A DNA stretch of 48,460 nt from Pirellulales bacterium. Lineage in GTDB: Bacteria; Planctomycetota; Planctomycetia; Pirellulales; JAGQOS01. The stretch's first letter is position 1; each line of letters opens with the position of its first letter. This document shows, one piece after another, positions 1-41,859 of this stretch. Both the position numbers and the translations under genes were made by a program. The notes beneath the pieces were generated by a model. It was not told where the DNA came from. It saw nothing but the letters and a program-made list of their open reading frames with translations, and did no database searches. The stretch spans positions 1-48,460 of the forward strand of contig JANQPJ010000087.1 in NCBI GenBank assembly GCA_028289525.1, given 5' to 3'.

Positions 1-4
1 TTCT

Positions 5-36: not shown

Positions 37-80
37 ATGCAAGGAACAACTTTGCAATCCTCTTGGTTCTGAGACAAAGC

Positions 81-3092: not shown

Positions 3093-3172
3093 GTGTCCTC
3101 CGGTGACACGCTCGCGCAATCCTTTGCGCTAATAGGCGAATAGGTGTAGGGCGGCTTCGTTCTGCGGCGGAA

Positions 3173-7767: not shown

Positions 7768-7862
7768 GGATATGGTCCTTGAAATAAACGTAAAGGTGGG
7801 TTTTGGTAGGTGCGAAAATCAGGTATTCGTAAATCGTTTCAGGCAGAGCCCGTTGTTCGTCC

Positions 7863-8183
7863 TCAGTGGGTATGCCCAAGGACATGGTGCGTTGTGGGGT
7901 CGAGTTGATAAGTCTGCCCAGTCAACGGACAGGTAGGCGCTCCGTCGGGGAAATATTCGCTCGTCGTCGGTGGAAGCATGTCGGCCAAATCGCTTTGTGG
8001 CCAACGTCCCTGATCGCGGAAGAAACGTTGGACTTGGACTTCCACGTTTCCCTTAGTTACGTAGCATGCGTTTTTCTTCGTGTCGCCAGAATTTATGGAA
8101 ACCCGAGGGATAACCACCGCGGCCACCGCCGCGAGAATCGTGATAACCGCTACCAGTTCGATAAGTGATATGGCCGAACGCAT
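7863..8183 (-). CDS. small major-type pilin/pseudopilin, paralog 1 (atypical cleavage site)
   Basis: MRSA/ISLIELVAVITILAAVAAVVIPR has Glu5 conserved but Ala at -1 and a 4-aa leader. 106 aa. C-terminal YFPDGAPTCP motif. Confidence 0.8.
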   Translation of the reverse strand: MRSAISLIELVAVITILAAVAAVVIPRVSINSGDTKKNACYVTKGNVEVQVQRFFRDQGRWPQSDLADMLPPTTSEYFPDGAPTCPLTGQTYQLDPTTHHVLGHTH

Positions 8184-8278
8184 CTTTGAATTTCTGACTT
8201 AGGGTTTCTGATTAAAACTTGATGCCATTCGCGTCAGCGCGTCTCTCTCCACCCTCCACCCTTAACCCTCCACCGCGT
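8184..8278 (-). repeat. composite intergenic element (G-rich block, GCGC motif, A/C/T-rich SD-less tail) between gspF-A and pilin 1
   Basis: Minus-sense sequence: aacgcggtggagggttaagggtggagggtggagagagacgcgctgacgcg..aatcagaaaccctaagtcagaaattcaaag, then ATG. Related copies at 11186..11248, 28082..28184 and 31163..31215. Confidence 0.85.
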
Positions 8279-9496: not shown

Positions 9497-11185
9497 TTAG
9501 CTCGATATTTTGTAAAAAACTTCTTCAATCGTGGTTTGGCCGGAGTAGACTTTTTCCAGGCCAGCTTGGGCCAGGTCGACCATGCCGGCGGCTGTCGCGA
9601 TTTCGCGGAGCTTGGTCGCTGGCACGCCTCGTTCGATGGCTTCGGCCAGCTCAGGCGTCACGGTCATGATTTCGTAAATCGGCAGTCGACCGGAGTAACC
9701 GCTGCCGAGACATTTTTTACAGCCTCGACCGTGGAAGAAAACAACGTCTTCCGGCAGCTGACGGTCTTTGGTCAGGGCTCCCAACAGTGGCTCATTCGGT
9801 TCGACCGGTTCTTTGCATTCTTCGCAGATCGACCGGAGCAGACGCTGGGCCACTGAACCCAGGAGAGCTCCGGCGATTTTAAACGGATCGAGCCCTAGGT
9901 CGTTCAGTCGCGCCACGGCTCCGATGGCGTCGTTGGTATGCAAGGTGCTGATGAGCAAATGCCCGGTCAACGCGGCCTGAACGGCAGTGCCGGCCGTTTC
10001 ATGGTCGCGAATTTCGCCCACCATGATCACGTCGGGGTCTTGCCGCATGATGTATTTCAAGGCATTTGCAAACCCAAGCCCGTGTTCATTGTCCGAACCC
10101 ACTTGGTTGATGCCAGGCAACCGGTATTCGACCGGGTCTTCGACCGTCACAATATTTCGTCGCACAGAGTTCAGCCTGGAAAGCACCGAGTACATGGTGG
10201 TGCTCTTGCCTGAGCCGGTCGGTCCGGTGACGACGATCATGCCATACGGCTTGTCGATGAGCTTTTGCAACTGTTCGCGATCGCGTTGGCCCATTCCGAG
10301 ATGGTCGAGGTCGAAGACCTTGTTGCCTTCGTCCAATAGTCGCATGACGACTTTTTCGCCAGCGACCGTGGGAATGGTGCTCACGCGGAAACTGGCCTTG
10401 GTGTCGGCTTCCTGAACCGACAGGTGGCCATCTTGTGGACGCCGGTTCTCGGTCGTATCCATGTCGCCCATCACCTTGATTCGGGCAACCACGGCCTCTT
10501 CGATGTGCGAAGGGATGGTCATTACCGCTTGCAGCTCGCCGTCGACCCGATAGCGAACCCGCATCTCAGGCGTGTGTGGTTCGAGATGAATATCGCTGGC
10601 GTTGGCGTTGATCGCACCGGTCAAGATTGCACGGACCAGCCGTACCACCGGGGCGTCGTGCTCCTCTGGCACTTCTGCCTCGACCACCTCTTCCAGCAAA
10701 TCTTCGGCCTTCTTGAGGTCGGCCATCTTCATGTCGACAATTGTCTGGCGGGCGACAATCCGGTCGTCAAACCCTCGATCGAGTGCCGTGAGCACTTCGT
10801 GTTCCAAGGCCACTACCGGCTCGATGTGATAGCCGGTGATCAGTTCAGCTTCGGAAATCGTCTCGATGTCGTCGGGTGCAACCATGGCCAGTTGCAATTG
10901 GGCGCCATGCACGTCGACCGGCACCACTGCCCGCTCGCGGGCCAGATCTTCCGGCAGCAGGCGGACAAATTGAGGGTTGATCGCCTGGGGCACGATTTCC
11001 TGAAACGGTACTTCATATTGTTCGGCCAGCGCCTCGCCCAATTGGGCCACGGTGATTAGGCCTCGGCGCAGCAAAACAACGCCCAGCATGCCCCGTTCGG
11101 TGCCTTGGGCTTTGATGGCCGCTTCCACCTGACTTTCGGTCAAGTGGCCGTTGCGCACTAGGATGTCGCCTAATCGTCCTGCCAT
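9497..11185 (-). CDS. GspE/PilB/MshE-family secretion ATPase, cluster A
   Basis: 562 aa. Walker A GPTGSGKSTT, Asp box, Walker B/His box (DPDVIMVGEIRD..TGHLLISTLHTND), tetra-Cys (CEECK..CKKC), and an N-terminal MshEN-like motif pair. Confidence 0.95.
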   Translation of the reverse strand: MAGRLGDILVRNGHLTESQVEAAIKAQGTERGMLGVVLLRRGLITVAQLGEALAEQYEVPFQEIVPQAINPQFVRLLPEDLARERAVVPVDVHGAQLQLAMVAPDDIETISEAELITGYHIEPVVALEHEVLTALDRGFDDRIVARQTIVDMKMADLKKAEDLLEEVVEAEVPEEHDAPVVRLVRAILTGAINANASDIHLEPHTPEMRVRYRVDGELQAVMTIPSHIEEAVVARIKVMGDMDTTENRRPQDGHLSVQEADTKASFRVSTIPTVAGEKVVMRLLDEGNKVFDLDHLGMGQRDREQLQKLIDKPYGMIVVTGPTGSGKSTTMYSVLSRLNSVRRNIVTVEDPVEYRLPGINQVGSDNEHGLGFANALKYIMRQDPDVIMVGEIRDHETAGTAVQAALTGHLLISTLHTNDAIGAVARLNDLGLDPFKIAGALLGSVAQRLLRSICEECKEPVEPNEPLLGALTKDRQLPEDVVFFHGRGCKKCLGSGYSGRLPIYEIMTVTPELAEAIERGVPATKLREIATAAGMVDLAQAGLEKVYSGQTTIEEVFYKISS

Positions 11186-11248
11186 GTTGGATTTCTGATT
11201 TGGGATTTAGGGTTTAGGGTTTAGGGTTTGACGCGCTGGCGCGTTGTT
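11186..11248 (-). repeat. leader element filling the RR-A/gspE-A spacer
   Basis: Minus-sense sequence: acgcgccagcgcgtcaaaccctaaaccctaaaccctaaatcccaaatcagaaatccaac, then ATG. Includes (TTTAGGG)x3 on the plus strand. No SD sequence. Confidence 0.85.
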
Positions 11249-11635
11249 TTAGGTCTCGACGGCTACCGTCAGGTGCTCGATTTTGGATTCGAGATTGGCC
11301 GGGTCGTAAGGGGTAACCAGGTAGTCGTTGGCACCGGCCGTGTACGCTCGCTGGACGCCTTCAAGTTCGGCGTTGGTTGAAAAGACGAGCACCGGAACCT
11401 GGCTGGTGCGTGGCTCGTTGCTCAGCCGGTTCAGCAGTTCTAGCCCTTCGTTTCCGCACAGGGCCAGGTCGAGAATGATCACGTTCGGCAAGTTGGTTTC
11501 CAGATGCGCAAACGCCTCTTCGGCCGAGGTGACCGTGGCGACTTCGTAGCCCAATAGTTCCAACCGGAAGGCGGTAATTTGGGCCAACGTTGGTTCGTCT
11601 TCGATCAGCAGGATATGGAGGGAGTCGTGAGCCAT
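11249..11635 (-). CDS. receiver-only response regulator (CheY-like), first gene of cluster A
   Basis: 128 aa with IEDEP, IILDLAL and VFST motifs. The conserved Lys position reads DYLVTPYD, i.e. Thr instead of Lys. No output domain. Confidence 0.85.
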   Translation of the reverse strand: MAHDSLHILLIEDEPTLAQITAFRLELLGYEVATVTSAEEAFAHLETNLPNVIILDLALCGNEGLELLNRLSNEPRTSQVPVLVFSTNAELEGVQRAYTAGANDYLVTPYDPANLESKIEHLTVAVET

Positions 11636-11707: not shown

Positions 11708-11759
11708 AAACGCCTCAACGATTTGTGACAACAGCCCGAATAATCGTCACGACCCCTAT

Positions 11760-11858
11760 GGATTTCTGATTTGGGATTTGACGCGCGCTAACGCGTTTCT
11801 TCTGTCTTGAAAGTTGCTAGCTATGCGTCAGCGCGTCAGATTTCCAATCAGAAATTCC
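11760..11858. repeat. inverted pair of the leader-type element
   Basis: 11760..11796 is ggatttctgatttgggatttgacgcgcgctaacgcgt. 11825..11858 is gcgtcagcgcgtcagatttccaatcagaaattcc. The two are mutually reverse-complementary at about 80 percent by eye. Confidence 0.8.
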
Positions 11859-11865
11859 AAATTGC

Positions 11866-15078: not shown

Positions 15079-15206
15079 CGGTTAAAGCAAATTTGTGAGG
15101 ATCGATATCGCTTATTCGAGAAATCGCACGTTGTGAGATTATCGCATTGATTGCCAGGGAATTCCAGCGGGGATAGGCGAACAAGAGAACTGCGAATTCA
15201 TGCTTT

Positions 15207-15285
15207 AAAAAGAGCAGCGATCGGTGGTCGAAGCGCGAAATCAAGCAATCTAGCCGTTTCGCGCTTCGGCCACCGGCCGTTGCTG
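15207..15285. repeat. REP-like element, inverted pair
   Basis: aaaaagagcagcgatcggtggtcgaagcgcgaaa, 15-nt spacer, gtttcgcgcttcggccaccggccgttgctg. Located in the comEA/nadC divergent spacer. Confidence 0.9.
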
Positions 15286-15378
15286 TTGCCTGGAAAGAGA
15301 CCGGTTTGGACTTGAACATTCATCACCGCACGGTAGAACGGCGGTGGAAACACCTCCTGTGTGTAGGAAAGGTCTGCA

Positions 15379-16303: not shown

Positions 16304-16331
16304 TTGACACCTCTTGAGCACGGCGTATCGT
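16304..16331 (+). promoter_or_regulatory. candidate sigma70-type promoter of cluster B (TTGACA-N16-TATCGT)
   Basis: TTGACA at 16304..16309 and TATCGT at 16326..16331. About 70 nt upstream of the first pilin ATG. Sequence match only. Confidence 0.3.
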
Positions 16332-16403
16332 TTCAATAAAGCTTCTTGTGGATGTGTAAACGCTAGCCGCGATGCAATGTATTACCGGACAATTGGCCAT
16401 TGG

Positions 16404-16997
16404 ATGAAGTACTCCCACCTAAAACCGCACGGCTTCACCCTGATCGAGGCGATGGTTTCGCTGAGCGTTGCCATGGTGGCGGCCAGCGCGATGTTTTTGG
16501 GAATTGCCCGTTCGCTCGAGACGACCGATTGGCTGCTCGAATCGGCGGTTGCCCAGGGGATGGCTGAACAGTTGGTCGACGAGGCGATTGGCAAATGGTA
16601 CGTCCTGCCAGGTGGAAATCCGTATCAAGTGTGGCTGGGGCCATCGAGTGCCGAACAAACTGGAGCAGGCCGGTCTCAGTACAACGACACCGACGACTAT
16701 CATCGCTTTGTCGCCCATCCGCCTGAAGACCGTTGGGGAGTGGCGTTAGGTCGAGAAGACGACGCTGGCGGATTACGACATCCAAACTTCCGAGCACCAG
16801 AGACTTCGTTAAGTCGTTACCGCCAACAGGTAGAAGTTTACTACGTCGACGCGACCAACCCAGCGATACGTTTGCCAGATGGTCAGACCAGCAGCATGCG
16901 AGTGATCGAGGTGCGAGTGTTGGTGCGCGACGGCCAAGGTCGTTGGCAGGAAGCCGCACGCGTGCGTCGGCTGTTTACCTATATCCCCACAGCTTGA
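16404..16997 (+). CDS. prepilin-type minor pilin (PilV/GspI-like), cluster B
   Basis: ORF 16314..16997. The ATG at 16404 gives MKYSHLKPHG/FTLIEAMVSLSVAMVAASAMF with Glu5. Confidence 0.75.
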   Translation: MKYSHLKPHGFTLIEAMVSLSVAMVAASAMFLGIARSLETTDWLLESAVAQGMAEQLVDEAIGKWYVLPGGNPYQVWLGPSSAEQTGAGRSQYNDTDDYHRFVAHPPEDRWGVALGREDDAGGLRHPNFRAPETSLSRYRQQVEVYYVDATNPAIRLPDGQTSSMRVIEVRVLVRDGQGRWQEAARVRRLFTYIPTA

Positions 16998-17109
16998 CCC
17001 CCTTGCGATTGAGAGCGAGTTGCTCTTGATCACTGTGCACGCGACAAGCATTTTTTCCAAAATTTTCCGACGAATCTGACTACGAATGATCCGAAATGGC
17101 TCTAGTCTC

Positions 17110-17922
17110 ATGAAGCCTGCTAGAAAACATTCCGGGTTTACCTTTGTCGAAATGACGTTGGCGCTGGGGATCATGGCGACGCTGATCGTTGCGATGGGAG
17201 TAATGGCCCAACTGGTGTTTGATGGCGAGCACTACAACGAAGCCTATGCCCGGGTAGTGCAGCACGCTCGCGTGGCCCTCGAACGGATTGAGGGCAATGT
17301 TCGCCAGGCGACTAGCAATCCGGAGTATCCAGGCGCGCTGGTCATCGAGCAAACCATCGGTAGTTGGACGTTTCCCGATACGCTAGTGGTGTGGCGACCT
17401 GAAACCACAGCTGCCGATCCTGACGGAGCACCGCAGATTGGCGAGTTGGTGATTTATAGCTATCACCCCGGCGCCCCCAACGAACTTTGGGAAATCACGG
17501 ATCGCGGGAATACGAGGACCGCGCCGGCAGCGGCCGATGCGGCTGCTTGGCAAACCTTGGTCGAGTCACTCAAGACGAGCAGCACAAGCAAGAAAGTGGT
17601 GTTGACCAATCGGTTGCGGACCGCGACGGTCGACGAGATTGGCGAGAACGATGCCCGTTATCGTCGGGGCTGTGTACGGTTCGAGCAACAGATGAACCCT
17701 ACGGCAGCCAACTGGGCCAGCTACCAGGCAGGCACACGAGCTTGGGAAGACCTCGATTGGACGCAAACCATCTATGGGCCAGATTCTGGGCTACGGCAAA
17801 GTCGGGTGCGGGTTGAATTACAAATGACGCCGATTTCTTCAGTGACCGAGATGCCTTCGGATGATTTGCCGCCAGTGGCGTTTTTCGGGGCGGCGAGCCT
17901 CTATTATCCGTTGCCTCGCTAG
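17110..17922 (+). CDS. prepilin-type minor pilin (PilW/GspJ-like), cluster B
   Basis: ORF 17086..17922. MKPARKHSG/FTFVEMTLALGIMATLIVAMG with Glu5. Confidence 0.75.
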   Translation: MKPARKHSGFTFVEMTLALGIMATLIVAMGVMAQLVFDGEHYNEAYARVVQHARVALERIEGNVRQATSNPEYPGALVIEQTIGSWTFPDTLVVWRPETTAADPDGAPQIGELVIYSYHPGAPNELWEITDRGNTRTAPAAADAAAWQTLVESLKTSSTSKKVVLTNRLRTATVDEIGENDARYRRGCVRFEQQMNPTAANWASYQAGTRAWEDLDWTQTIYGPDSGLRQSRVRVELQMTPISSVTEMPSDDLPPVAFFGAASLYYPLPR

Positions 17923-18096
17923 AGCAAGTTGTTCGGACATGCGCCGACATTCTTATGTTTTCACTCGAGTTTTTCCGAGGAAACGACGCCACGGATTTTG
18001 GTAATCTGCGATAGACGTTCGACGCTCGACTCTGAGCGAGATTACAATTGTTGCAATCGTTATGATTCGTTCCCGCCTTTGAGGAGCAAGCTTGCT

Positions 18097-18339
18097 ATGC
18101 GACAAAAGCCGCGATTTTTTTGGACCGGACTGGTTGTAGCAAACCTGGTAGTGGGTTGCGTGCTAGGCTTTTATCGGAATTCCGGCGCCGCGCCACCTCG
18201 CACCGGCGAGCCGTTCGCCAATTCAGTCAGGCAGCGGGCCGAAATGATTGTTCACCTGAAGGAAATGAAGCAGCTGCTCAAAGAGCAGAATGCGTTATTG
18301 CGCTCCGGCAAAGTCAAGGTGGTTGTCGCCCAACCGTAG
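18097..18339 (+). CDS. small single-pass membrane protein with a C-terminal coiled coil
   Basis: The ATG at 18097 is preceded by GAGGAG (18081..18086). MRQKPRFFWTGLVVANLVVGCVLGF is a TM segment. EMIVHLKEMKQLLKEQNALL follows. 80 aa. Embedded between minor pilin genes. Confidence 0.5.
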   Translation: MRQKPRFFWTGLVVANLVVGCVLGFYRNSGAAPPRTGEPFANSVRQRAEMIVHLKEMKQLLKEQNALLRSGKVKVVVAQP

Positions 18340-18382
18340 TGGTGCGAGTCCGCCTCCTGTCGCTTTGCAAGGGAGAGGATTC

Positions 18383-19003
18383 ATGTCGCGCGACCAACCA
18401 GCCCGATCGGCGATTGGAATTGAAAACCGGCTACCGATCCGTCGTGGTTTCTCGCTGGTCGAGCTGTTGATTGTTGTGGCGCTGCTCGGCATTTTTGCCG
18501 CAACACTGATCCCAACCACCGAAACTCACGTCTATGGGCAATTGAAGACCGCGGCCCAAACGCTGGCAGGCGACCTCGACTATGTTCGTTCGTTGGCCGT
18601 TACCCACAACAGCAAATACACCGTGGTGTTCGACACGAGCAATCGACGCTACACGATCCGGCATACCGGGATCAACTCTGAGCTAAAAACGTTGCCGGTG
18701 GCCCACCGGACTGGGGTGGAGATTCTCAGCGACAGGCAGGAACACCGTTTCGATTTCGACCGCTTGCGCGAGTTGATCATGCAGGTCGATCTCCAGTTCG
18801 TTCAGGCAGGCACCGATTCGCCTAGCGCGGTGAGTCAGGTTGAATTTACCGCCGACGGCTCGACCAGCCGGAGTGAGCCGACCGTCGTTTGGCTCGCGGC
18901 AGGCCATGGCTCCAGCCGACGTTATTTGGCGGTACACATCAACCCCACCACCGGCCTCACGACAGTCGAAGGCTTTACGGCCACGGCGCCTGGAGCCAGT
19001 TAA
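18383..19003 (+). CDS. prepilin-type minor pilin (GspH/FimT-like), cluster B
   Basis: The ATG at 18383 is preceded by GGGAGAGG. Long leader, then RRG/FSLVELLIVVALLGIFAATLIP. DLDYVRSLAV is GspH-like. Confidence 0.75.
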   Translation: MSRDQPARSAIGIENRLPIRRGFSLVELLIVVALLGIFAATLIPTTETHVYGQLKTAAQTLAGDLDYVRSLAVTHNSKYTVVFDTSNRRYTIRHTGINSELKTLPVAHRTGVEILSDRQEHRFDFDRLRELIMQVDLQFVQAGTDSPSAVSQVEFTADGSTSRSEPTVVWLAAGHGSSRRYLAVHINPTTGLTTVEGFTATAPGAS

Positions 19004-22218: not shown

Positions 22219-22250
22219 TCAGCTTTCTTGGGAAATACAAACCCTCAAGA

Positions 22251-22279
22251 TTCCGTGCTTCGGCCACCGGCCGCTGCTG
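22251..22279. repeat. REP-like element, single half-unit, inside the cluster B operon
   Basis: ttccgtgcttcggccaccggccgctgctg, between the pilP-like gene and the secretin gene. Confidence 0.85.
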
Positions 22280-22317: not shown

Positions 22318-24525
22318 ATGAGCAGTTTGTTACGCATTGCCCTGCTGGGATGTTTCGCTGTCACCGGTGTTGGCCTGGCGATTTATGTTGGCACGTTGGC
22401 GCCACCCGACCGCGCACACGAAGAAACACTCCCGGGGCCGGAGGTCGTGCTGCCGTCGGTGGTAGCCGAACAAGCTACGATGGTCGAACCCGACCTAGTT
22501 ACTCCGACGCCGGTGGCCCAGGCAGTCCCACTGGTGACTTTGACGACGGCTCAACTCCCAGCCGAACCGTCGGAGGAATCAGCACCGGTCGAACCGCCTG
22601 GAGATGCGACCGAACCGAAAGATGAGGTCGATCATTTTCTCGAAAAATTTGCCCAATTGCAGGGCTATCTCGACAAGTTGCATGCGCGTCGCGAGCCGCC
22701 TCAGGCAAACACCCCGGCCACGCTAGCCGGTCCAGCGTTGCAGGCTTCAGGTGTTGCCCAGCCAGCGGTGCCTGAAGAGCTGCCCAGCGAGTCGGCCTTG
22801 GAAGAACCAGAACCGGTGCCGGCGGATCCCAAGACAATGATTCGCAAGTCGATCGAGGAAGGGGATGATCGGCTGTCGATCACGATTCAAGGGGAAGAGA
22901 TTCGCAAGGTGCTCGAGCTACTAAGCGAGCAGGGCGGCCTCAATATTCTGGCCAGCAACAATGTAACCGGCACGGTGTCGGCAACCCTTCAAGAGGTCGA
23001 CATCGAGACGGCGCTGAACGCCATTCTCAAGTCGACCGGCTATCGGTGGCGGCGCGAAGGCGATTTTTTGTATGTTGGCACGCCAGCCGATTTTGACGCG
23101 ATGGCCAAAGCCGATGATTCGATCGGCACTCGACTCTATCGGTTGAACTATGTGCTGGCTTCTGAGATCCAGGGGCTGATTGCTCCCTTGCTGACCGAAG
23201 GCGTCGGTTCGATCAGCATCACTTCCCCGGCGGAGCAAGGGATTGCCAACAACAGTTTCGAGGTAGGCGGCGACGACTACGCAGGCCAGGATACGGTTCT
23301 GGTGCGTGATTATGAAGCAGTCTTAGCGCAGGTGGACCAGATTGTTGACCAGATCGACCGGCGGCCGACTCAGGTACAGATCGAAGCGATGATTCTCAGT
23401 GTAAGACTCAACGACCGGAACGAACTGGGCGTGAATTTCGAGGCCTTGCGCAACGAGGGAGCGATTCGCCTGACCTCGGGGTCTCCGTTGACCAATTTGG
23501 CGAACTTCGACCTGAGCGAGAGAGGTCTGAAGGTCGGTTTTCTCGATTCAAGCTTGTCACTGTTTGTCGAGGCGCTCGAGTCCATCGGCGATACGAATGT
23601 GGTCGCCACGCCCCGGCTGATGTGTTTGAACAAACATCGAGCTGAAGTGTTGATCGGCTCGCAACTCGGCTATGTAAGCACGACTCAGACCGAGACCAGC
23701 ACGACCCAAAGCGTGGAGTTTTTGGAGGTTGGCACGCAATTGCGGCTGCGACCGTTTATTGCCAGCGACGGCGTGATTCGCATGGAAGTCCATCCCGAGC
23801 TGTCGAGCGGCAATGTGCGGATTGAACAAGGACTTACGTTGCCTGACAAAGAAGTCACTGAAGTGACCACGAACATCATGGTCCGCGATGGGCATACGGT
23901 GGTAATTGGCGGGCTGATGCGCGAAGAACTCATTTCAACCGCTACGCAAATTCCGTTTTTTGGCAGCCTGCCAGTCGTGGGGGCGGCGTTTCGGCAAAAC
24001 ACCGAGTCGACCGAGCGACGTGAGATTCTAGTGCTGATTACTCCGCATATTGTGGTTGAGCCAGAGGCTTGTGCAGAGGGCCAATGCGCGGCCCAGGAAT
24101 TTCACCACCGGCACAACGTTTATGCTGATCAGATGATCCCGACCAGTAAACGCTATTTAGGCCGCAAATATTTCCGACAGGCTCAACGGGCGTGGAGCAA
24201 TGGTGATGCCCGAGCGGCACTCCGCAATATTAACCTGGCGATTGGGTTCGATCCGCTCAATCGGGCAGCAATCAATCTGCGTGCCGACATTGTGGCCGGT
24301 CGTCCTTTGGGTGAGCACACGCTTGATGGAAACACCGAAACCCGGCAGTTCGAAGCCGAGGCGTTGAATTTAGACGAGGCACCAAGCGACGAGCGCGCGT
24401 TGCCGCGATCGTTTTGGAAGCGTATCGAGGCAGAGTCGACAGACTACCAGCCACGCGATCTAGGCCGACCAGGCGACCGAATACGAATCGTCAAACCCAA
24501 TCTACGAGTCGGGAGATCTTCCTGA
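22318..24525 (+). CDS. secretin (PilQ/GspD family), cluster B
   Basis: 735 aa. Signal/TM N-terminus, Pro/Glu-rich linker, N-domains (ITIQGEEIRKVLELLSEQGGLNILASNNVTGTVSATL), secretin core (IPFFGSLPVVGAAFRQ..EILVLITPHIV), and a 152-aa C-terminal tail. Confidence 0.9.
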   Translation: MSSLLRIALLGCFAVTGVGLAIYVGTLAPPDRAHEETLPGPEVVLPSVVAEQATMVEPDLVTPTPVAQAVPLVTLTTAQLPAEPSEESAPVEPPGDATEPKDEVDHFLEKFAQLQGYLDKLHARREPPQANTPATLAGPALQASGVAQPAVPEELPSESALEEPEPVPADPKTMIRKSIEEGDDRLSITIQGEEIRKVLELLSEQGGLNILASNNVTGTVSATLQEVDIETALNAILKSTGYRWRREGDFLYVGTPADFDAMAKADDSIGTRLYRLNYVLASEIQGLIAPLLTEGVGSISITSPAEQGIANNSFEVGGDDYAGQDTVLVRDYEAVLAQVDQIVDQIDRRPTQVQIEAMILSVRLNDRNELGVNFEALRNEGAIRLTSGSPLTNLANFDLSERGLKVGFLDSSLSLFVEALESIGDTNVVATPRLMCLNKHRAEVLIGSQLGYVSTTQTETSTTQSVEFLEVGTQLRLRPFIASDGVIRMEVHPELSSGNVRIEQGLTLPDKEVTEVTTNIMVRDGHTVVIGGLMREELISTATQIPFFGSLPVVGAAFRQNTESTERREILVLITPHIVVEPEACAEGQCAAQEFHHRHNVYADQMIPTSKRYLGRKYFRQAQRAWSNGDARAALRNINLAIGFDPLNRAAINLRADIVAGRPLGEHTLDGNTETRQFEAEALNLDEAPSDERALPRSFWKRIEAESTDYQPRDLGRPGDRIRIVKPNLRVGRSS

Positions 24526-27757: not shown

Positions 27758-28081
27758 ATGAAGCTTCAAACCGAAATTTTTGGCGATGTCACGGTGGTCC
27801 ATACACCGGAAGAGCTTGGTCGCGATCAGGGAGATGCCTTGGGAAATTTTGTCGCGACGCTACAAAAGCATTCCGTAGTGCTGGACCTTGACCCGACCGA
27901 GTCGATTGACAGCCATGGGCTAACTTCGTTGGTCGAAGTCCAACAGGCTCTGCGAAAATTGGATGGCGACTTAAAAATTTCGACGACGAATCGTATGAAC
28001 CGAAAGATTTTTGAAATCACACGTCTCGACAAACAGCTCGAAGTGTTCGACAGCATCATCGAAGCCGTGAAAAGCTTTTGA
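27758..28081 (+). CDS. STAS-domain protein (anti-sigma-factor-antagonist / SpoIIAA-like)
   Basis: 107 aa. VVLDLDPTESIDSHGLTSLVEV carries the DSxGL motif with the phosphorylatable-Ser position conserved. Confidence 0.8.
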   Translation: MKLQTEIFGDVTVVHTPEELGRDQGDALGNFVATLQKHSVVLDLDPTESIDSHGLTSLVEVQQALRKLDGDLKISTTNRMNRKIFEITRLDKQLEVFDSIIEAVKSF

Positions 28082-28184
28082 AGCGGTGGTAGGTGGTGAG
28101 TGGTCCGCGATAGCGCGTGCCCTTAACCCTCGACCGCTTGTAGTGAGCGCGTCAAATCCTAAATCCTAAATCAGAAATCCAATC
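28082..28184 (+). repeat. composite intergenic element filling the STAS/gspE-B spacer
   Basis: agcggtggtaggtggtgagtgg..cccttaaccctcgaccgc..gagcgcgtcaaatcctaaatcctaaatcagaaatccaatc, then GTG. No SD sequence. Confidence 0.85.
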
Positions 28185-29909
28185 GTGCCTGTTTTGAATG
28201 AAACGAAGCTTCGTCTTGGCGACCTGTTGGTCGATCGTGGATATATCACGACCGAAGACCTTCAGGCAGCGCTCGCCTTGCAGCGCAAGAGCCGAGGCAA
28301 GGATACTCGGCTGTTGGGCGAGATTTTGGTCGACGAAGGGTATTGCAGCGAAGATTGTGTGGTGGAATGTCTGGCGCTGGAATACGGCGTTCCGTATGCC
28401 AAGCTCGACGCTCGGCTGTACGACCCTCAGGCGATCGACGTCTTGCCGCGCGACTATATCGAGCAAAATCAGGTGTTGCCGCTCTTCAGCGTAGCTGGCG
28501 TGCTTACGGTGGCCGTTAGCGAACCGTCAAATCTGTTTTTGATCGACGAGTTGCGGCAACAGACCGGCATGGAAGTTCAGATCGTGGCGGCCACGGTCAA
28601 AGATATTCGCCGCATGATTACCGGCCTGCCGAACTCGACGGTGTTCGTCATCGACGACATCATCGAAGACTCTGACACGGCCGACGTGACGTTGATCGAA
28701 GACGCCATCGAGGACATTGGCGACATCGAAGAGATTGCCGGCCAGTCGCCGGTGATTCGGCTTGTAAACCACATCATCTGCACAGCGGTCAAAGAAGGAG
28801 CCAGCGACGTTCATATCGAGCCGGCTGGCCGGTCGATGCGCGTTCGCAACCGCATCGACGGGCGTTTGCACAAGGCGCTCGAGGTGCCTTTGCATCTGTT
28901 GAACGCAGTGACCAGCCGGATCAAGGTGATGGCCTCGCTCGACATCAGCGAACGCCGGCTGCCGCAGGACGGCCGGGTGCACGTGATGCTCGAAGGACGC
29001 AAGGTCGACTTGCGAATCAGCACGTTTCCAAGCAGTAGTGGCGAAAAGACGGTGATTCGTGTGCTCGATACTCGGGGGATGTCGTTGGTCCTCGAAGAAC
29101 TCGGCTTTTCCGAGTCGGTGCTAACGCGATTTCAGAACAACATTCAGGCTCCCAACGGAATTGCACTCGTGACCGGGCCAACCGGTAGCGGGAAGTCGAC
29201 CACACTCTATGCGGCGCTCAACACAATCGCCACCATGGAAAACAATGTTTGCACGGTCGAAGATCCGATTGAATACAACTTGCCGCTGATCAATCAGTTT
29301 CAGGTGCAAGAACGAGTTGGGCTGACATTTTCGAAGGCCTTGCGAACCCTATTACGGCAAGATCCGGATGTGATCATGTTGGGCGAAGTGCGTGACGAGG
29401 AGACCGCTCGCACCGCGATTCAAGCGGCGTTGACCGGCCATTTGGTGCTCAGCACACTGCATACCAACAACGCGCCGTCGGCCATCACGCGGCTGGTCAA
29501 CATGGGCGTCGAATCGTTCCTGATCGGCGCGGCAGTGAATATGGTGCTGGCCCAGCGGTTGTTGCGTCGGGTTTGCCCCAAATGTTCGGAAGCCTACGAA
29601 CCGGACCGCACGGTTCGCAAAACCATCGAGCGGCTCGGCTATGGAGTGGAGACCTTTTATCGGGGCGTAGGTTGTCGATCGTGTCGGAACACCGGGTTTC
29701 GTGGCCGGATTGGCATTCACGAGTTGCTGGTCGTGAGCGACGAGATGCGCGATGCGATTGTTTCCAATGCCCCGATCACGACCTTGCGCGAAATCGCGCT
29801 CCGCGACGGAATGCAATCGTTGCAACAAGACGGGTTTGCCAAGGTGCGTGAAGGAATCACTACCGTGGAGGAAGTGTTTCACGCCACCGGCGATATGGAA
29901 CTGGGCTGA
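28185..29909 (+). CDS. GspE/PilB/MshE-family secretion ATPase, cluster B
   Basis: 574 aa with GTG start. Walker A GPTGSGKSTT, DPDVIMLGEVRD, TGHLVLSTLHTNN, tetra-Cys (CPKC..CRSC), and an N-terminal MshEN-like motif. Confidence 0.95.
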   Translation: MPVLNETKLRLGDLLVDRGYITTEDLQAALALQRKSRGKDTRLLGEILVDEGYCSEDCVVECLALEYGVPYAKLDARLYDPQAIDVLPRDYIEQNQVLPLFSVAGVLTVAVSEPSNLFLIDELRQQTGMEVQIVAATVKDIRRMITGLPNSTVFVIDDIIEDSDTADVTLIEDAIEDIGDIEEIAGQSPVIRLVNHIICTAVKEGASDVHIEPAGRSMRVRNRIDGRLHKALEVPLHLLNAVTSRIKVMASLDISERRLPQDGRVHVMLEGRKVDLRISTFPSSSGEKTVIRVLDTRGMSLVLEELGFSESVLTRFQNNIQAPNGIALVTGPTGSGKSTTLYAALNTIATMENNVCTVEDPIEYNLPLINQFQVQERVGLTFSKALRTLLRQDPDVIMLGEVRDEETARTAIQAALTGHLVLSTLHTNNAPSAITRLVNMGVESFLIGAAVNMVLAQRLLRRVCPKCSEAYEPDRTVRKTIERLGYGVETFYRGVGCRSCRNTGFRGRIGIHELLVVSDEMRDAIVSNAPITTLREIALRDGMQSLQQDGFAKVREGITTVEEVFHATGDMELG

Positions 29910-29923: not shown

Positions 29924-31120
29924 GTGAATCTCATGCAGTTTGAATTTGCCGTTCGCGATCCCTTGGGACGTCAGCACCAAGGTTTTCTCGATGCTGTTTC
30001 TTCAGAAGAAGCCCGACAGAAGCTGCGGCAGGATGGGTTTCGTGTGCTCTCGTTGCGCGAGAGTCGTCAGGCGGCCGGAAGGCTCTGGGGCAAACGGATC
30101 GCCCGACGCGAGATCGTCTATATGACCAGCCAGTTGGCCATCATGGTCGACACCGGCATCACTCTGTCGGTCGCCCTCGAAAGCCTGTCGGAAGAAGAGG
30201 AAAACCCAGCCATGCAGACATTGCTGCTCGACTTGCGGCAAACGGTGGAAGGGGGCGAAGAGTTTTCCAAGGCGCTCGAAAAGCATCCTCAATATTTCGA
30301 CCAGACCTACCTTTCGTTAGTCCGCGCCAGCGAGGCCAGCGGGATGCTGGCCGAAATGTTAGAGCGCATCGCGGTTTATCAGCGAAAACAGCTCGACACT
30401 CGGGCCAGGGTTCGGTCGGCAATGGCCTATCCGATCGTGATGGCCGTCGTGGCCCTGGCCGTGACGTTGTTCTTGCTGATTTACATTTTGCCAAAATTCG
30501 AACCGTTGTTTGCGAAGAAAGGCCAGGAGCTGCCAGCGATCACCCTGGCGATGATGCAACTGTCCGATGGTCTGATCGGCTATTGGTACATCTGGCTGGC
30601 CGCCGTGGTGGCCGTCGTTGGTGGATTGATGTACGCTCACCAAACTCCGCGCGGACAACAGGCCATCGATTGGATGAAGATCAATCTACCCATCTTCGGC
30701 CCCATGTTTCGTAAGGTAACGATCAGCCGCAGTGTACATACGCTGGGAACCTTGATATCGAGCGGCGTCTCGGTGCTCGAGGCCTTGCGACTTTCGGCCG
30801 ACGTGGCAGGCAACGTGTACTACCAGCAAATTTGGCAACGCGTGGTCGAGCAAGTGACCGGGGGGAGCCAAATTTACGAAACGCTCTCAGGCAGCCAGTT
30901 GTTTCCCTCGATGCTGGTACAGATGATGCGGTCGGGCGAAGAGACCGGGCGGTTGGACCATGTGCTTAACAAGGTGAGCGCCTACTATGACGGCGAGGTC
31001 GAAACCTCGCTGAAGACCGTAACCAGCTTGATCGAACCGCTCTTGATTGTGGTGATGGGCGTCGTTGTCGGCGGGATTGCTCTGGGCCTGTTGCTGCCGA
31101 TCTTTACGATGGCCCGCTGA
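29924..31120 (+). CDS. GspF/PilC-family platform protein, cluster B
   Basis: 398 aa (GTG 29924 or ATG 29933). Duplicated GspF repeats. C-terminal LIEPLLIVVMGVVVGGIALGLLLPIF. Confidence 0.9.
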   Translation: MNLMQFEFAVRDPLGRQHQGFLDAVSSEEARQKLRQDGFRVLSLRESRQAAGRLWGKRIARREIVYMTSQLAIMVDTGITLSVALESLSEEEENPAMQTLLLDLRQTVEGGEEFSKALEKHPQYFDQTYLSLVRASEASGMLAEMLERIAVYQRKQLDTRARVRSAMAYPIVMAVVALAVTLFLLIYILPKFEPLFAKKGQELPAITLAMMQLSDGLIGYWYIWLAAVVAVVGGLMYAHQTPRGQQAIDWMKINLPIFGPMFRKVTISRSVHTLGTLISSGVSVLEALRLSADVAGNVYYQQIWQRVVEQVTGGSQIYETLSGSQLFPSMLVQMMRSGEETGRLDHVLNKVSAYYDGEVETSLKTVTSLIEPLLIVVMGVVVGGIALGLLLPIFTMAR

Positions 31121-31300
31121 GCACGCGGAAAAGTAGCAGGCACACTCGGTATGCCGTCCGCCTTTAGACGCGGTGGAGGGTTGAGGGTGAAGGGTGGAGG
31201 GAACGCGCTCGCGCGTACCAACAACTAAAAACCAACCACGAACAACCATCTTTCACCTCAAGCTGCCTAGCGGACGGCACACGGAGTGTGCCTGCTACTT
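31121..31300 (+). repeat. nested repeat: 31-bp imperfect inverted repeat flanking a G-rich block and an A/C-rich tail
   Basis: Arms at 31130..31161 (aagtagcaggcacactcggtatgccgtccgc) and 31270..31300 (gcggacggcacacggagtgtgcctgctactt). Centre is gacgcggtggagggttgagggtgaagggtggagggaacgcgctcgcgcgt, with a G3N4G3N4G3N4G3 motif at 31178..31201. Confidence 0.85.
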
Positions 31301-31511
31301 TGGTGGTCGCAATGCTAGCAAGATCTCGCGCAAACCACACCCCTGCACGCTTTGCTGCTAAAGACTCACTCACTAGCTTGCTAGCATGGCCCCCTCGGGC
31401 TTGGCAAAGTTTGCCGATTCTATGGATTGAGCCAAGATTTCACAAAGTATCGGTTGTAGTGATACCGATATCTACGCCAGGTTCAATCATAACGACTTAG
31501 GGGAAATTCCA

Positions 31512-33135: not shown

Positions 33136-33226
33136 AGGATCGAGCGCAATAACTCCTGAAGGTATTAGCGACTGTCCGGCGACGCGTCGCGGCTAGAGCT
33201 TGCGAGCCAAAAGAACTGTAAAGTCG

Positions 33227-33303
33227 AAAAGCAGCGACCGGTGGTCGCTCGCGAAATGGTTAAATTCTCCCGTTTCGCGAGCGGCCACCGGCCGCTGTTT
33301 TTT
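33227..33303. repeat. REP-like element, inverted pair
   Basis: aaaagcagcgaccggtggtcgctcgcgaaa, 15-nt spacer, gtttcgcgagcggccaccggccgctgtttttt. Confidence 0.9.
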
Positions 33304-36350: not shown

Positions 36351-36460
36351 GGCGCGTCGATGGTTCGGTGCAAAGGATCGCTCACTTTCATTGTAGTCGG
36401 GCAGCGCTGGTCGTGCTATTGCCGGCCGAGGTAGTTCAGGAGAACTGCAAGGTCATGTTT

Positions 36461-36538
36461 AAAAAGAGCAGCGGCCGGTGGCCGCTCGCGAAACGTTCGA
36501 TTTCACCGGTTTCGCGAGCGACCACCGGTCGCTGCTTT
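36461..36538. repeat. REP-like element, inverted pair
   Basis: aaaaagagcagcggccggtggccgctcgcgaaa, 15-nt spacer, gtttcgcgagcgaccaccggtcgctgcttt. Located in the ubiB/PQQ-propeller divergent spacer. Confidence 0.9.
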
Positions 36539-36669
36539 GGCAGAATAGACGACTTTGCAGTCGTTCTCACCCTACCAGAGGTTTTTCTTGACCTGGCTGG
36601 CCGAATCGTCCAGACTGGCGTCAGTTTTTGGCCTGCCTCCGCTCCTTCACACTAAGACCGGTTGTTCCC

Positions 36670-40173: not shown

Positions 40174-40327
40174 AGCAGATCCCGTAGTGTTGTTTCGTCG
40201 TAAAGCTTCGGAAATCAAAGCGCGAGAGACGTTACAGTTAAGTTCGACCCGAACTAGCTGAGAGTTGTGAAAAGCTAATCTCAGCGATTCCAAAATTGCT
40301 CTAAAACAGGGACTTGAAAAACCGTAC

Positions 40328-40355
40328 GTTTCGCGAGCGACCGCCGGTCGCTGCT
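40328..40355. repeat. REP-like element, single half-unit
   Basis: gtttcgcgagcgaccgccggtcgctgct, in the uvrB/beta-CASP convergent spacer. Confidence 0.85.
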
Positions 40356-40380
40356 ATTTCGAGGGAAAAACTAGCGCCTG

Positions 40381-41712: not shown

Positions 41713-41830
41713 GGGATGAATCGCTCAAGTAGGGCTGGCAGAAGTGGCTGGGGGGAAACGGTACTTTCAGTATTTCCAAAGACGAGGATTCAAAAGACTG
41801 GTTGTTTTGTGGAGATCTGTAAAACTCTCT

Positions 41831-41859
41831 GTTTCGCGCTTCGGTCACCGACCGCTGCT
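41831..41859. repeat. REP-like element, single half-unit with swapped stem
   Basis: gtttcgcgcttcggtcaccgaccgctgct. The stem is CGGTC/GACCG instead of CGACC/GGTCG. Confidence 0.85.

What the first reader, a model, noticed from the sequence alone, without database searches (positions are those of the whole stretch)
28082..28184. Conserved SD-less composite element runs up to the start codons of both ATPase genes and the first pilin gene
In the sense orientation, three intra-operon spacers end with nearly the same A/C/T-rich tail directly before the start codon.
- gspE-B: agcgcgtcaaatcctaaatcctaaatcagaaatccaatc, then GTG.
- gspE-A (11186..11248): agcgcgtcaaaccctaaaccctaaaccctaaatcccaaatcagaaatccaac, then ATG.
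- pilin 1 (8184..8278): ..aatcagaaaccctaagtcagaaattcaaag, then ATG.

None of the three has a Shine-Dalgarno sequence, although other genes in the window (rpsU, RR-B, the porin, the Cys-rich protein) have clear GGAGG sites. Each tail is preceded by a GCGC-rich palindrome (ACGCGC-NN-GCGCGT). In two cases a G-rich block also precedes it.

Near-identical non-coding sequence in front of paralogous genes whose proteins have clearly diverged argues for a selected cis-element. Candidates are a translational enhancer or repressor site, an internal promoter, or an RNA processing site.
Basis: seen in the sequence. Interest (0 to 1): 0.65.

Follow-up and report, generated by a model that had tools for sequence, protein, structure and literature searches.

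The report
Dispersed heptad repeats abutting start codons
The near-identical sequence in front of the two secretion-ATPase genes and a pilin gene is real, but it is one arm of a multi-copy family of 7-base-periodic intergenic repeats, a known but functionally unexplained kind, and not a control element private to these genes.

Summary
Three operon spacers end in the same A/C-rich, 7-nt-periodic tail, 3-4 nt from the start codons of GspE-B, GspE-A and pilin 1. The two ATPases share only 39% of their residues.

The tail is a module of a dispersed mosaic repeat: [G- or GT-rich heptad arm] - [ACGCGC-NN-GCGCGT core] - [A/C-rich heptad arm].
- The window holds two further copies, at 11759-11859 and 31172-31250.
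- In the source coral metagenome the tail sums to about 25-55 times single-copy depth and the G arm to 100 times or more.
- Modules occur inverted and in different combinations.
- The closest relatives (69-80% GspE identity) lack the element in the orthologous spacer.
- In a co-occurring strain the pilin tail diverges faster than the flanking genes.
- Being SD-less is not special: only 5 of 34 genes in the window have a GGAG/GAGG core.

The geometry matches the heptameric G-rich repeats of Xanthomonas and Nostoc (Rehm 2015): G strand after stop codons, C strand before start codons, about four units, convergent pairs. I found the same bias in 158 arrays from many phyla (38 against 13).

Best reading: a new family of a known repeat class. 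Its unstructured arm is tolerated, and perhaps useful, as an SD-less leader. No function has been shown.

The parts
28153..28184 (+). A/C-rich heptad arm (AAATCC type, 3.9 units). It ends 4 nt before the GTG of gspE-B. The half-core GCGCGTC lies at 28147-28153.
   Evidence: Multi-copy in the source metagenome, with summed depth 650-1010 against 18-26 in the flanks. Predicted unpaired.
28083..28137 (+). A complete small element in the first half of the STAS-gspE-B spacer. It consists of a GT/G-rich arm GCGGTGGTAGGTGGTGAGTGG, an imperfect core CCGCGATAGCGCGT, and a C-rich arm GCCCTTAACCCTCGACCGC. The C-rich arm is the inverted form of the GGGTTAAGGG block.
   Evidence: family D17. Folds as a hairpin; the 125-nt stretch has -35.7 kcal/mol, z -1.7.
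11186..11248 (-). The whole RR-A to gspE-A spacer. It holds the perfect core ACGCGC-CA-GCGCGT (11231-11244) and an A/C-rich heptad arm (AAACCCT/AAATCCC type, 5.9 units) that ends 3 nt before the ATG. The complementary (+) strand carries a canonical G4 motif at 11202-11226.
   Evidence: Summed depth 370-435 against 10 in the flanks. Leader 92% unpaired, the most accessible of 34.
8184..8278 (-). The whole gspF-A to pilin 1 spacer. It holds a G-rich heptad arm GGTGGAGGGTTAAGGGTGGAGGGTGGAGAGAG (8243-8274) 4 nt after the stop codon, the core-like ACGCGCTGACGCG (8230-8242), and a degenerate A/C-rich arm that ends 4 nt before the ATG.
   Evidence: G arm summed depth 1700-2250 against 13-31. In a second strain the tail part has 6 substitutions and 2 indels in 47 nt.
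11759..11859 (-). An inverted pair located between the terminator of the upstream gene and RR-A. It consists of a GT-rich arm TGGAATTTCTGATTGGAAATCTG with GACGCGC, a spacer of about 30 nt, then ACGCGTTAGCGCGCGT with the A/C-rich arm CAAATCCCAAATCAGAAATCC. The A/C arm ends 123 nt from the RR-A start codon, so it does not abut it.
   Evidence: (D9, I20). The arms match 24/28. Folds as a long hairpin, -42.5 kcal/mol, z -2.0.
31172..31250 (+). The cleanest full element, 51 nt after the gspF-B stop codon. It consists of a G arm GGTGGAGGGTTGAGGGTGAAGGGTGGAGGGA (a canonical G4 motif, 4.3 units), the perfect core ACGCGC-TC-GCGCGT (31203-31216), and an A/C arm of another class, ACCAACAACTAAAAACCAACCACGAACAACCATC.
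   Evidence: (I7). Summed depths are 2300-3100 for the G arm, about 1100-2080 over the bins spanning the core, and 220-460 for the A/C arm, against 13-24 in the flanks.

Best explanation
The three spacers carry copies of a lineage-specific, multi-copy mosaic repeat.

**Architecture.** Each element has a short GC palindrome (ACGCGC-N2-GCGCGT), a G- or GT-rich arm on its 5' side and an A/C-rich arm on its 3' side. Each arm is about four tandem 7-nt units. The arms fall into at least three classes:
- GGTGGAG/GGGTTRA;
- GGATTTA/GGGTTTA, whose complement is the AAATCC tail;
- GGTTGTT, whose complement is ACCAACA.

**Why the tails look alike.** The copies descend from one repeat family. Selection on the ATPase and pilin genes is not needed to explain the identity.

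**Why the tail faces the start codon.** The element has the same composition on both strands, always GT-rich, then core, then AC-rich. Any such element between co-directional genes therefore puts its G arm after the upstream stop codon and its A/C arm against the downstream start codon.

**What is inferred, not shown.**
- Arrays grow by slippage until they meet constrained sequence. Copies that would place a G-rich, structure-prone, SD-like arm at the ribosome binding site are removed by selection.
- In the mRNA the A/C arm serves as a G-poor, unstructured leader, on which ribosomes start without an SD, as they do at most genes of this organism. The small GC hairpin, and the G arm where present, lie upstream of it.
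- The element is thus tolerated and possibly mildly helpful, but it is not a dedicated regulator.
For: **The repeat family**
- The modules occur at five loci in the window and nowhere else in it.
- All arrays have period 7, with 3.9-5.9 units.

**Copy number in the source metagenome**
- The tail reaches 650-1010 and 370-435 summed depth, against 10-26 in the flanks.
- The G arm reaches 1700-3100 and the core about 1100-2080, against 13-31.
- Between 16 and 170 contigs were laid per locus.

**Mosaic structure**
- The GGGTTAAGGG block is inverted in the gspE-B spacer (family D17).
- Other contigs join a GGTTGTT-type arm, or the GGATTT arm, to the same core (loose ends).

**Not conserved**
- The nearest GspE-B relatives reach only 69-80% aa identity. 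Their STAS-GspE spacers have other sequence.
- No species representative in genome contigs carries the tail with its core.
- In a strain about 2% diverged, the pilin spacer has 8 substitutions in 95 nt plus 2 indels. The flanking genes have 21 in 1132 nt, Fisher P = 0.001.

**The geometry is general**
- Among G-heptad arrays from many phyla, gene starts with the C strand in the mRNA outnumber the opposite by 19 to 5.
- Among (AAAYCCY)n arrays the figure is 19 to 8. Eight of those 19 lie 0-5 nt from the start codon.
- Pooled, this is 38 to 13, P = 0.0003.
- Convergent G-then-C pairs outnumber the reverse by 31 to 9.
- The same rules were published for Xanthomonas and Nostoc (PMC4692102).

**Leader properties**
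- The three leaders are predicted unpaired, ranking 1st, 6th and 8th of 34.
- Most genes here lack an SD.
Against: - The register with the start codon is tighter than simple spacer filling predicts. AATCAGAAAYYC ends 3-4 nt from the start in three independent spacers. One further metagenome contig shows the tail followed directly by ATG and an open frame.
- A relative at about 8x depth keeps the gspE-B tail with at most 1 change in 31 nt, against at least 5 in 46 nt of the adjacent coding sequence. This is not significant, P = 0.39.
- All five loci lie in or beside the two secretion/pilus clusters. These clusters make up about half of the window, so P is about 0.04. That is my own estimate from the gene coordinates, not a tool result.
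- The copy numbers are summed contig depths from a metagenome. The G-arm motif also occurs in other phyla, so part of that depth may come from other organisms.
- No transposase or other means of spread was found.
- There are no RNA data.
Confidence: 0.6

Rival explanations
1. The A/C-rich arm is an actively selected, modular translation element. It acts as an SD-independent ribosome landing or standby site that the repeat family hands out to genes. The GGAGG-rich G arm and the GC hairpin upstream capture or insulate ribosomes between cistrons.
For: - The distance to three start codons is constant at 3-4 nt, and a fourth gene in the metagenome shows the same.
- The leaders are predicted unpaired, ranking 1st, 6th and 8th of 34, P about 0.009.
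- In other phyla, 8 of 19 A/C arrays next to a start codon end 0-5 nt from it, P about 0.02.
- The orientation bias is 38 to 13.
- The G arms contain three to four GGAGG-like motifs.
- From general knowledge: unstructured A- or CA-rich leaders and standby sites raise initiation in E. coli, through protein S1.
Against: - Two of the five A/C arms in the window are not next to a start codon: 123 nt from RR-A, and 260 nt from the next gene.
- The pilin tail drifts fast between strains.
- Most other SD-less genes in the window have no such arm.
- Orthologous spacers in relatives manage without it.
- Orientation bias is equally expected from selection merely removing harmful orientations.
Confidence: 0.17
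2. It is a gene-specific regulatory site. A shared RNA operator in front of gspE-A, gspE-B and pilin 1 would be bound by one regulator, either a protein or an sRNA, to co-ordinate the two secretion/pilus systems.
For: - The tails are near-identical in front of paralogues that are 39% identical.
- All five loci lie in or beside the two clusters.
- The gspE-B tail is retained in a diverged relative.
- Each cluster has regulatory partners (RR; HK-RR-STAS) directly upstream.
Against: - There are tens of tail copies and 100 or more G-arm copies in the metagenome, with unrelated flanks.
- The modules are mosaic and occur inverted.
- Relatives with the same HK-RR-STAS-GspE-GspF synteny lack the element.
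- There is no Rfam match and no significant conserved fold.
- The pseudopilin genes of cluster B (16314-19003) lack it.
Confidence: 0.08
3. It is a DNA- or RNA-structure element. The G arms, or the G-rich complement of the tail, would form G-quadruplexes, or the arm pairs would form cruciforms. These would modulate transcription, replication or mRNA decay between cistrons. This includes use as an RNase processing or stabilising site, in the way REP/BIME elements act at 3' ends.
For: - Two of the only three canonical G4 motifs in 48 kb lie in these arms. One is on the non-coding strand before gspE-A, the other on the coding strand after gspF-B.
- The arrays have about four units, as in the G4-forming repeats of PMC4692102.
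- A GC hairpin followed by an A/U-rich single strand resembles RNase E-type sites. This is general knowledge and was not tested.
Against: - The gspE-B and pilin tails have no G3 tracts on either strand.
- The G arm and the A/C tail of one element are not complementary.
- Fold z-scores are weak, from -0.2 to -2.0.
- Even for the Xanthomonas and Nostoc repeats no function was found.
Confidence: 0.1
4. It is an internal promoter in front of gspE and the pilin gene.
For: The tail contains TAAATC hexamers, 4 of 6 matching TATAAT, and lies at the head of genes that might need separate expression.
Against: - There is no -35/-10 pair in either region.
- The tail runs to within 3-4 nt of the start codon.
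- The same sequence occurs where no gene follows.
- Planctomycete promoter types are not covered by the scan, so this is not excluded outright.
Confidence: 0.04

Closest known systems
G-rich heptameric simple-sequence repeats of Xanthomonas (GGGAATC) and Nostoc (GGGGA(C/T)T), Rehm et al. 2015, PLoS One (PMC4692102)
   Same: - The units are 7 nt long and there are about four per array.
- The repeats are dispersed in many copies and almost all are intergenic, mostly between co-directional genes.
[quoted passage not shown] - Many arrays occur as convergent pairs that form inverted repeats.
- Length and sequence vary between close relatives.
- The function is unknown.
   Different: - The unit sequences differ: AGGATTT/AGGGTTT/GGGATTT, GGTGGAG/GGGTTRA and GGTTGTT.
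- Several arm classes are mixed in one element.
- A fixed GC palindrome, ACGCGC-N2-GCGCGT, joins the arms.
- Some arms lack G3 tracts, so a G4 is not a general property.
- The host is a planctomycete.
- The register with the start codon is very tight, at 3-4 nt.
STRR (short tandemly repeated repetitive) heptanucleotide sequences of heterocystous cyanobacteria (Mazel et al. 1990, from my own knowledge; the Calothrix heptanucleotides are mentioned in PMC4692102)
   Same: Several different heptanucleotide units are tandemly repeated a few times and dispersed through the intergenic DNA of one genome.
   Different: As far as I know, no joining palindrome and no rule of position relative to start codons have been described for STRR. 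I did not test this here.
REP / BIME / REPIN elements (enterobacteria, Pseudomonas; Di Nocera et al. 2013, PMC3733652)
   Same: - They are short, GC-rich, palindromic, high-copy extragenic repeats.
- They combine with other motifs into mosaic elements inside operon spacers.
- They are often found in inverted pairs.
   Different: - The core here is only a 6+6 palindrome and has no unpaired GTAG or CGTC tag.
- The heptad arms have no counterpart in REPs.
- No RAYT gene was seen in the window.
- A genuine GTAG-tagged REP doublet does sit beside one copy, at 31130-31161 and 31270-31301.
Unstructured A- or CA-rich leaders and ribosome standby sites that support SD-independent initiation (E. coli S1-dependent enhancers; A-rich Kozak-like contexts in Bacteroidota; from my own knowledge)
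   Same: A G-poor, single-stranded stretch lies directly 5' of a start codon that has no SD. The organism starts most genes without an SD.
   Different: This is an analogy of mechanism only. Nothing here shows that the tail raises initiation, and the same sequence is a dispersed repeat.

Membership tests
Heptameric G-rich intergenic SSRs (Rehm et al. 2015 class) | Tandem units of 7 nt | tested here: met
   TRF gives period 7 at 8247-8274, 11189-11229, 28154-28180 and 31172-31201.
Heptameric G-rich intergenic SSRs (Rehm et al. 2015 class) | Unit consensus GGGAATC / GGGGA(C/T)T, with at least one exact GGGAATC unit in the Xanthomonas definition | tested here: not met
   The units are AGGATTT/AGGGTTT/GGGATTT, GGTGGAG/GGGTTRA and GGTTGTT.
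Heptameric G-rich intergenic SSRs (Rehm et al. 2015 class) | Dispersed, tens to hundreds of copies per genome | tested here: inconclusive
   Summed contig depth is 25-200 times the flanks in the source metagenome. The genome itself is not available, and the G-arm motif also exists in other phyla.
Heptameric G-rich intergenic SSRs (Rehm et al. 2015 class) | Intergenic, mostly between co-directional ORFs | tested here: met
   All five loci are intergenic and all lie between co-directional genes.
Heptameric G-rich intergenic SSRs (Rehm et al. 2015 class) | Preference for about four units | tested here: met
   The arrays have 3.9, 4.0, 4.3 and 5.9 units.
Heptameric G-rich intergenic SSRs (Rehm et al. 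2015 class) | [quoted passage not shown] | tested here: met
   - The G arms lie 4 nt and 51 nt after the gspF-A and gspF-B stop codons.
- The G/T-rich complement of the tail lies 3-4 nt from three start codons.
- The same bias holds in other phyla.
Heptameric G-rich intergenic SSRs (Rehm et al. 2015 class) | Frequent convergent pairs (G arm followed by C arm) | tested here: met
   Four of the five loci are G/GT arm, core, A/C arm. In other phyla the count is 31 to 9.
Heptameric G-rich intergenic SSRs (Rehm et al. 2015 class) | G-quadruplex formation by the repeat | not testable with these tools
   A canonical G3N1-7 x4 motif is present in only 2 of the 5 loci. Biophysical measurement is needed.
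REP / REPIN (GTAG- or CGTC-tagged palindromes) | Stem-loop of 5-13 bp with a conserved unpaired GTAG or CGTC tag at one end | tested here: not met
   The core ACGCGC-NN-GCGCGT has no unpaired tag, and the G-A-C / G-T-C bases are part of the stem. The flanking 32-nt repeats at 31130 and 31270 do carry GTAG.
REP / REPIN (GTAG- or CGTC-tagged palindromes) | Associated RAYT (tyrosine transposase) gene | tested here: inconclusive
   No transposase domain appeared among the 40 ORFs scanned with Pfam. The rest of the genome is unavailable.
MITE | Terminal inverted repeats plus target-site duplication | tested here: not met
   Only the 11759-11859 copy has matching arms, 24/28. No direct duplication flanks any copy (reading).
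Any curated cis-regulatory RNA (Rfam 15) | Match at the gathering threshold | tested here: not met
   There were 0 matches in the whole window on both strands.

The most novel reading that the evidence does not exclude
In SD-poor bacteria such as this planctomycete, heptad-repeat elements would act as portable ribosome-loading modules. The A/C-rich arm would be a ready-made SD-independent initiation site laid directly against start codons. The GGAGG-rich arm and the GC hairpin behind the upstream stop codon would hold or insulate ribosomes between cistrons. A repeat family would then supply and tune translation starts inside operons, here for the ATPases and the first pilin of two secretion/pilus machines.
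Probability: 0.15. Interest if true: 0.7.

Novelty: new member of a known kind. Interest (0 to 1): 0.35.

Why it matters
**For annotation.** Near-identical non-coding DNA in front of diverged paralogues should be checked for repeat-family membership before it is called a regulatory site.

**For biology.**
- The heptameric intergenic repeat class described for Xanthomonas and Nostoc extends to Planctomycetota. My scans also found it in Gemmatimonadota, Bacteroidota, Chloroflexota, Acidobacteriota and other phyla.
- The strand rule is the same everywhere: G strand after stop codons, C strand before start codons.
- This example has a tidy architecture of arm, GC palindrome and arm.
- The function of the class is an open question of modest size. 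The tight 0-5 nt abutment to start codons that lack an SD gives a concrete hypothesis to test, namely an unstructured landing site.

Tried and rejected
- **Finding the genome for a census.** This failed.
  - The tail-plus-core pattern gave only chance or coding hits in genome contigs. In metagenome contigs it gave the same, apart from one unrelated conserved Acidobacteriota locus.
  - Exact-protein look-ups for both ATPases found nothing.
  - The best homologue has 80% identity.
  - Only one DNA run holds the window, as short Logan contigs, and no RNA run does.
  - The flanks of the other copies could therefore not be read. Only summed depth and a few loose ends were available.
- **Known RNA families.** Rfam gave no match.
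- **Stable conserved RNA fold.** Fold z-scores range from -0.2 to -2.0, and no covariation data are possible without homologues.
- **Promoter or terminator.** There is no promoter-like site. The only terminator-like matches at the core are on the antisense strand.
- **CGTC-tagged REP membership.** The stem, loop and tag do not fit.
- **CsrA link.** csrA lies next to gspF in relative L164, but the window has no csrA, and the tail has no GGA in the sense strand.
- **Intrastrand-triplex repeats (PMC4666352).** The motif is unrelated.
- **Pairing of the tail with the 16S 3' end.** I considered and dropped this. At most AUC/AUCC could pair, and no rRNA gene is in the window.
- **Association with the secretion/pilus clusters.** This is weak once cluster B is seen to span 16.3-31.1 kb. 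The clusters then cover about 52% of the window, giving P about 0.04.
Full report
**1. Context**

The window comes from a planctomycete.
- The best GspE-B match in species-representative genomes has 74% aa identity (a Thermoguttaceae MAG).
- The best match in 5.8 billion proteins has 80% identity.
- The DNA is found in a single coral-metagenome run.

The window holds two secretion/pilus clusters.
- Cluster A (minus strand): RR-A (11249-11635), GspE-A (9497-11185), GspF-A (8279-9421), then prepilin-like genes, PilN/O-like genes and a secretin (1074-3119).
- Cluster B (plus strand): pseudopilins (16314-19003), PilM, a secretin (22318-24525), a TPR protein, a histidine kinase, RR-B, a STAS protein (27758-28081), GspE-B (28185-29909) and GspF-B (29924-31120).

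**2.

The three spacers end, in the sense strand, with these sequences:
- AGCGCGTCAAATCCTAAATCCTAAATCAGAAATCCAATC|GTG
- AGCGCGTCAAACCCTAAACCCTAAACCCTAAATCCCAAATCAGAAATCCAAC|ATG
- ...AATCAGAAACCCTAAGTCAGAAATTCAAAG|ATG

Supporting numbers:
- The two ATPase tails are 34/39 identical. The pilin tail is 19/24 identical to gspE-B when anchored on the start codon; that figure is my count on the end-anchored sequences printed. The ATPases themselves are 39% identical.
- Motif counts exceed every one of 100 shuffles.
- The start codons agree with the homologues' N-termini.
- All three tails contain stop codons, and the ORF listing places each start codon as the first after an in-frame stop, so the genes cannot begin further upstream.

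- Only 5 of 34 genes in the window have GGAG/GAGG at -20..-4, or 8 with AGGA. Lack of an SD is the rule here.
- The perfect palindrome directly precedes the tail only at gspE-A.
- In the gspE-B spacer the GGGTTAAGGG block is present in inverted form (family D17).

**3. What the thing is**

Repeat and tandem-repeat searches and direct reading show two further copies and a common grammar. The grammar is [G- or GT-rich arm of about four 7-nt units] - [ACGCGC-N2-GCGCGT] - [A/C-rich arm of about four 7-nt units].
- The cleanest copy is 31172-31250: GGTGGAGGGTTGAGGGTGAAGGGTGGAGGGA / ACGCGCTCGCGCGT / ACCAACAACTAAAAACCAACCACGAACAACCATC.
- At 11759-11859 the AAATCC-type arm and its inverted partner flank two core motifs. 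Together they form a long hairpin between a terminator and RR-A.
- The gspE-B spacer holds a complete small element and then a half-core with the tail.

Because the reverse complement of an A/C arm is a GT arm, the element reads the same way on both strands: GT-rich, then core, then A/C-rich.

**4. It is a multi-copy family**

I laid the Logan contigs of the source run on the loci.

| Module | Summed depth | Flank depth | Contigs laid |
|---|---|---|---|
| gspE-B tail | 650-1010 | 18-26 | 38 |
| gspE-A tail | 370-435 | 10 | 16 |
| G arm (pilin spacer) | 1700-2250 | 13-31 | 56 |
| G arm (31172-31202) | 2300-3100 | 13-24 | 170 |
| Core (31203-31216) | about 1100-2080 | 13-24 | 170 |
| ACCAACA-type arm | 220-460 | 13-24 | 170 |

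- The contigs that match have depths of about 3-60, which brackets the window's own 10-18.
- Their flanks differ. Similarity ends at ...AGAAATCC (28180) in most of them.
- Loose ends show the same core joined to other arms. One contig has TTAGTTGTTAGTGATTGGTTGTTAGT-ACGC in front of the AAATCC tail. Eleven contigs have ...GGATTTTGGATTTAGGATTTG in front of the 31203 core.
- Caveat: these are metagenome sums. The G-arm motif also exists in other phyla, and dinoflagellate TTTAGGG telomeres could add to the gspE-A figure. Per-genome numbers are therefore only rough: tens for the tail, probably 100 or more for the G arm.

**5. It is not conserved with the genes**
- Relatives with the same HK-RR-STAS-GspE-GspF synteny, at 69-80% GspE identity, have STAS-GspE spacers of 70-240 nt with unrelated sequence.
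- One of them (L166) has its own G-rich block followed by GACGCG and GATAGCC-type heptads. It also has a different palindromic repeat one spacer further up.
- These spacers are thus permissive sites that collect lineage-specific repeats.

Within the sample:
- A second strain, about 2% diverged, shows 8 substitutions and 2 indels in the 95-nt pilin spacer, 6 of the substitutions in the 47-nt tail. The flanking coding DNA has 21 substitutions in 1132 nt, Fisher P = 0.001.
- A more distant relative, at about 8x depth, keeps the gspE-B tail with at most 1 change in 31 nt, against at least 5 in 46 nt of coding sequence. This is not significant.

**6. Comparison with what is known**

Rehm et al. 2015 (PMC4692102) described GGGAATC repeats in Xanthomonas and GGGGA(C/T)T repeats in Nostoc.
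- They are heptameric and number about 185 per genome.
- About 90% are intergenic, mostly between aligned ORFs.
- Four units are preferred.
- 70-75 form convergent pairs that make inverted repeats.
- They vary between close species, and no function was found.

Every one of these positional features is met here. The unit sequences are not, and the fixed GC core and the mixed arm classes are extra. Two of the three canonical G4 motifs in the window lie in the arms, on the predicted strands. The gspE-B and pilin tails have no G3 tracts.

**7. The rule is general**
- Scanning species-representative genomes for GGAGGGTTRAGGGTGRAGGG gave 74 loci. They come from Prevotella, Gemmatimonadaceae, Planctomycetes, Chloroflexi, Saprospiraceae and others. 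Many have the layout G arm, GC palindrome(s), C arm (31 convergent against 9 divergent).
- AAAYCCYAAAYCCYAAAYCC gave at least 120 loci, including Nostoc, Thermoguttaceae and Kuenenia.
- I ran a crude ORF-based census, requiring at least 100 codons and an ATG or GTG within 30 nt.
  - The gene start next to the array has the C- or A/C-rich strand in its mRNA in 19 against 5 cases and 19 against 8 cases. Pooled, this is 38 against 13, P = 0.0003.
  - 8 of 19 lie 0-5 nt from the start. Examples are ...AAATCCCAAATCC|ATG and ...CCCTCCACCCTCAACCCTCC|ATG.
  - Stop-codon adjacency showed no bias in this crude test.

**8. How it most likely works**

Shown:
- repeat-family membership;
- mosaic, strand-symmetric architecture;
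- lack of conservation with the genes;
- the strand rule;
- predicted single-strandedness of the tails, 92%, 66% and 58% unpaired at -25..-1, ranks 1, 6 and 8 of 34, P about 0.009.

Inferred:
- Arrays arise and grow by slippage or recombination, and fill permissive operon spacers up to the constrained stop and start codons.
- Arrangements that put a G-rich arm at the ribosome binding site are lost. Such an arm is structure-prone and resembles an SD or a G4.
- The A/C arm then simply is the leader on which SD-independent initiation takes place.

Whether it raises initiation (rival 1), binds a regulator (rival 2), or acts through G4, hairpin or RNase sites (rival 3) cannot be decided without RNA data. 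No RNA run holds the window.

**9. Verdict**

The sequence observation is confirmed. The interpretation as a selected, gene-specific cis-element is only partly supported. It is best filed as a new family, in a planctomycete, of the known and functionally unexplained class of dispersed heptameric intergenic repeats, here with a REP-like palindromic core. Interest is moderate to low, at 0.35. The most novel surviving reading, portable SD-independent initiation modules, has perhaps a 15% chance.

Noticed in passing
window 31130-31161 and 31270-31301: A 32-nt inverted pair, 94% complementary. Each copy is GTAG followed by a 7-bp stem-loop (GTAGCA-GGCACAC-NNN-GTRTGCC-GTCCGC). It looks like a GTAG-tagged REP doublet (REPIN-like) that encloses the heptad element. 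The right copy has summed depth of about 1980 in the metagenome, against 13-24 in the flanks.
   Followed up: partly
window 1-43, 15204-15290, 22241-22278, 33221-33303, 36458-36540, 40319-40359, 41822-41859: A second hairpin-doublet repeat family, AAAAGCAGCGACCGGTGGTCGCTCGCGAAA / TTTCGCGAGCGRCCRCCGGYCGCTGCTTTT. It lies in intergenic regions outside the secretion operons, often at gene ends.
   Followed up: no
window 6807-6836 and 6869-6898: An isolated 30-nt inverted repeat, 97% complementary, with 32 nt between the arms. It lies between two pseudopilin-region genes.
   Followed up: no
window 7768-7862, at 7799: A co-occurring variant contig (depth about 5.6 against about 17.7 for the window's own) differs at 29 positions over 7751-7995. 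It carries a 13-nt insertion, GAATGGAGGGTGT, in the pilin 1 / pilin 2 spacer. This is a G-arm-like fragment gained or lost between strains.
   Followed up: partly
X1 contig matching window 11183-11237 (loose end at 11183): Another metagenome contig has the tail ...AAATCCAAC followed directly by ATG CGC ATC TGC CAT TTG ATT ACA CGT CTG ATT, which is open for 11 codons. This is a further, different gene with the tail abutting its start codon.
   Followed up: partly
L164 4933-5136, compared with window 31121-31511: In the closest relative a csrA gene lies directly after gspF on the opposite strand. The window has no csrA anywhere (tblastn). At that place it has the REP doublet and the heptad element instead.
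   Followed up: partly
L040, L133, L137, L142, L143: An Acidobacteriota MAG and several metagenome contigs (sample type not checked) share one conserved locus...CAGAAAGC-GCGCGTC-AAATCCCAAAYCCCAAA.... It has the same GCGCGTC-plus-AAATCCC junction but is a single-copy conserved site.
   Followed up: no
L166 6570-6730 and 7063-7153: The relative at 80% GspE identity has different repeats in the same two spacers. One is a long GC-rich palindromic repeat between RR and STAS. The other is a G-rich block followed by GACGCG and GATAGCC-type heptads between STAS and GspE. These spacers seem to collect repeats across the clade.
   Followed up: partly
L172, L175, L189, L200, L219, L223, L224, L226, L228 (Gemmatimonadaceae MAGs): A well-formed family: GGAGGGTTGAGGGTGGAGGG arm, GTGGCGCnnnGCGCCAC palindrome(s), then a CCCTC(A/T)ACCCTC arm. 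It occurs at many loci in each MAG, which makes it a good model set for studying this repeat class.
   Followed up: partly
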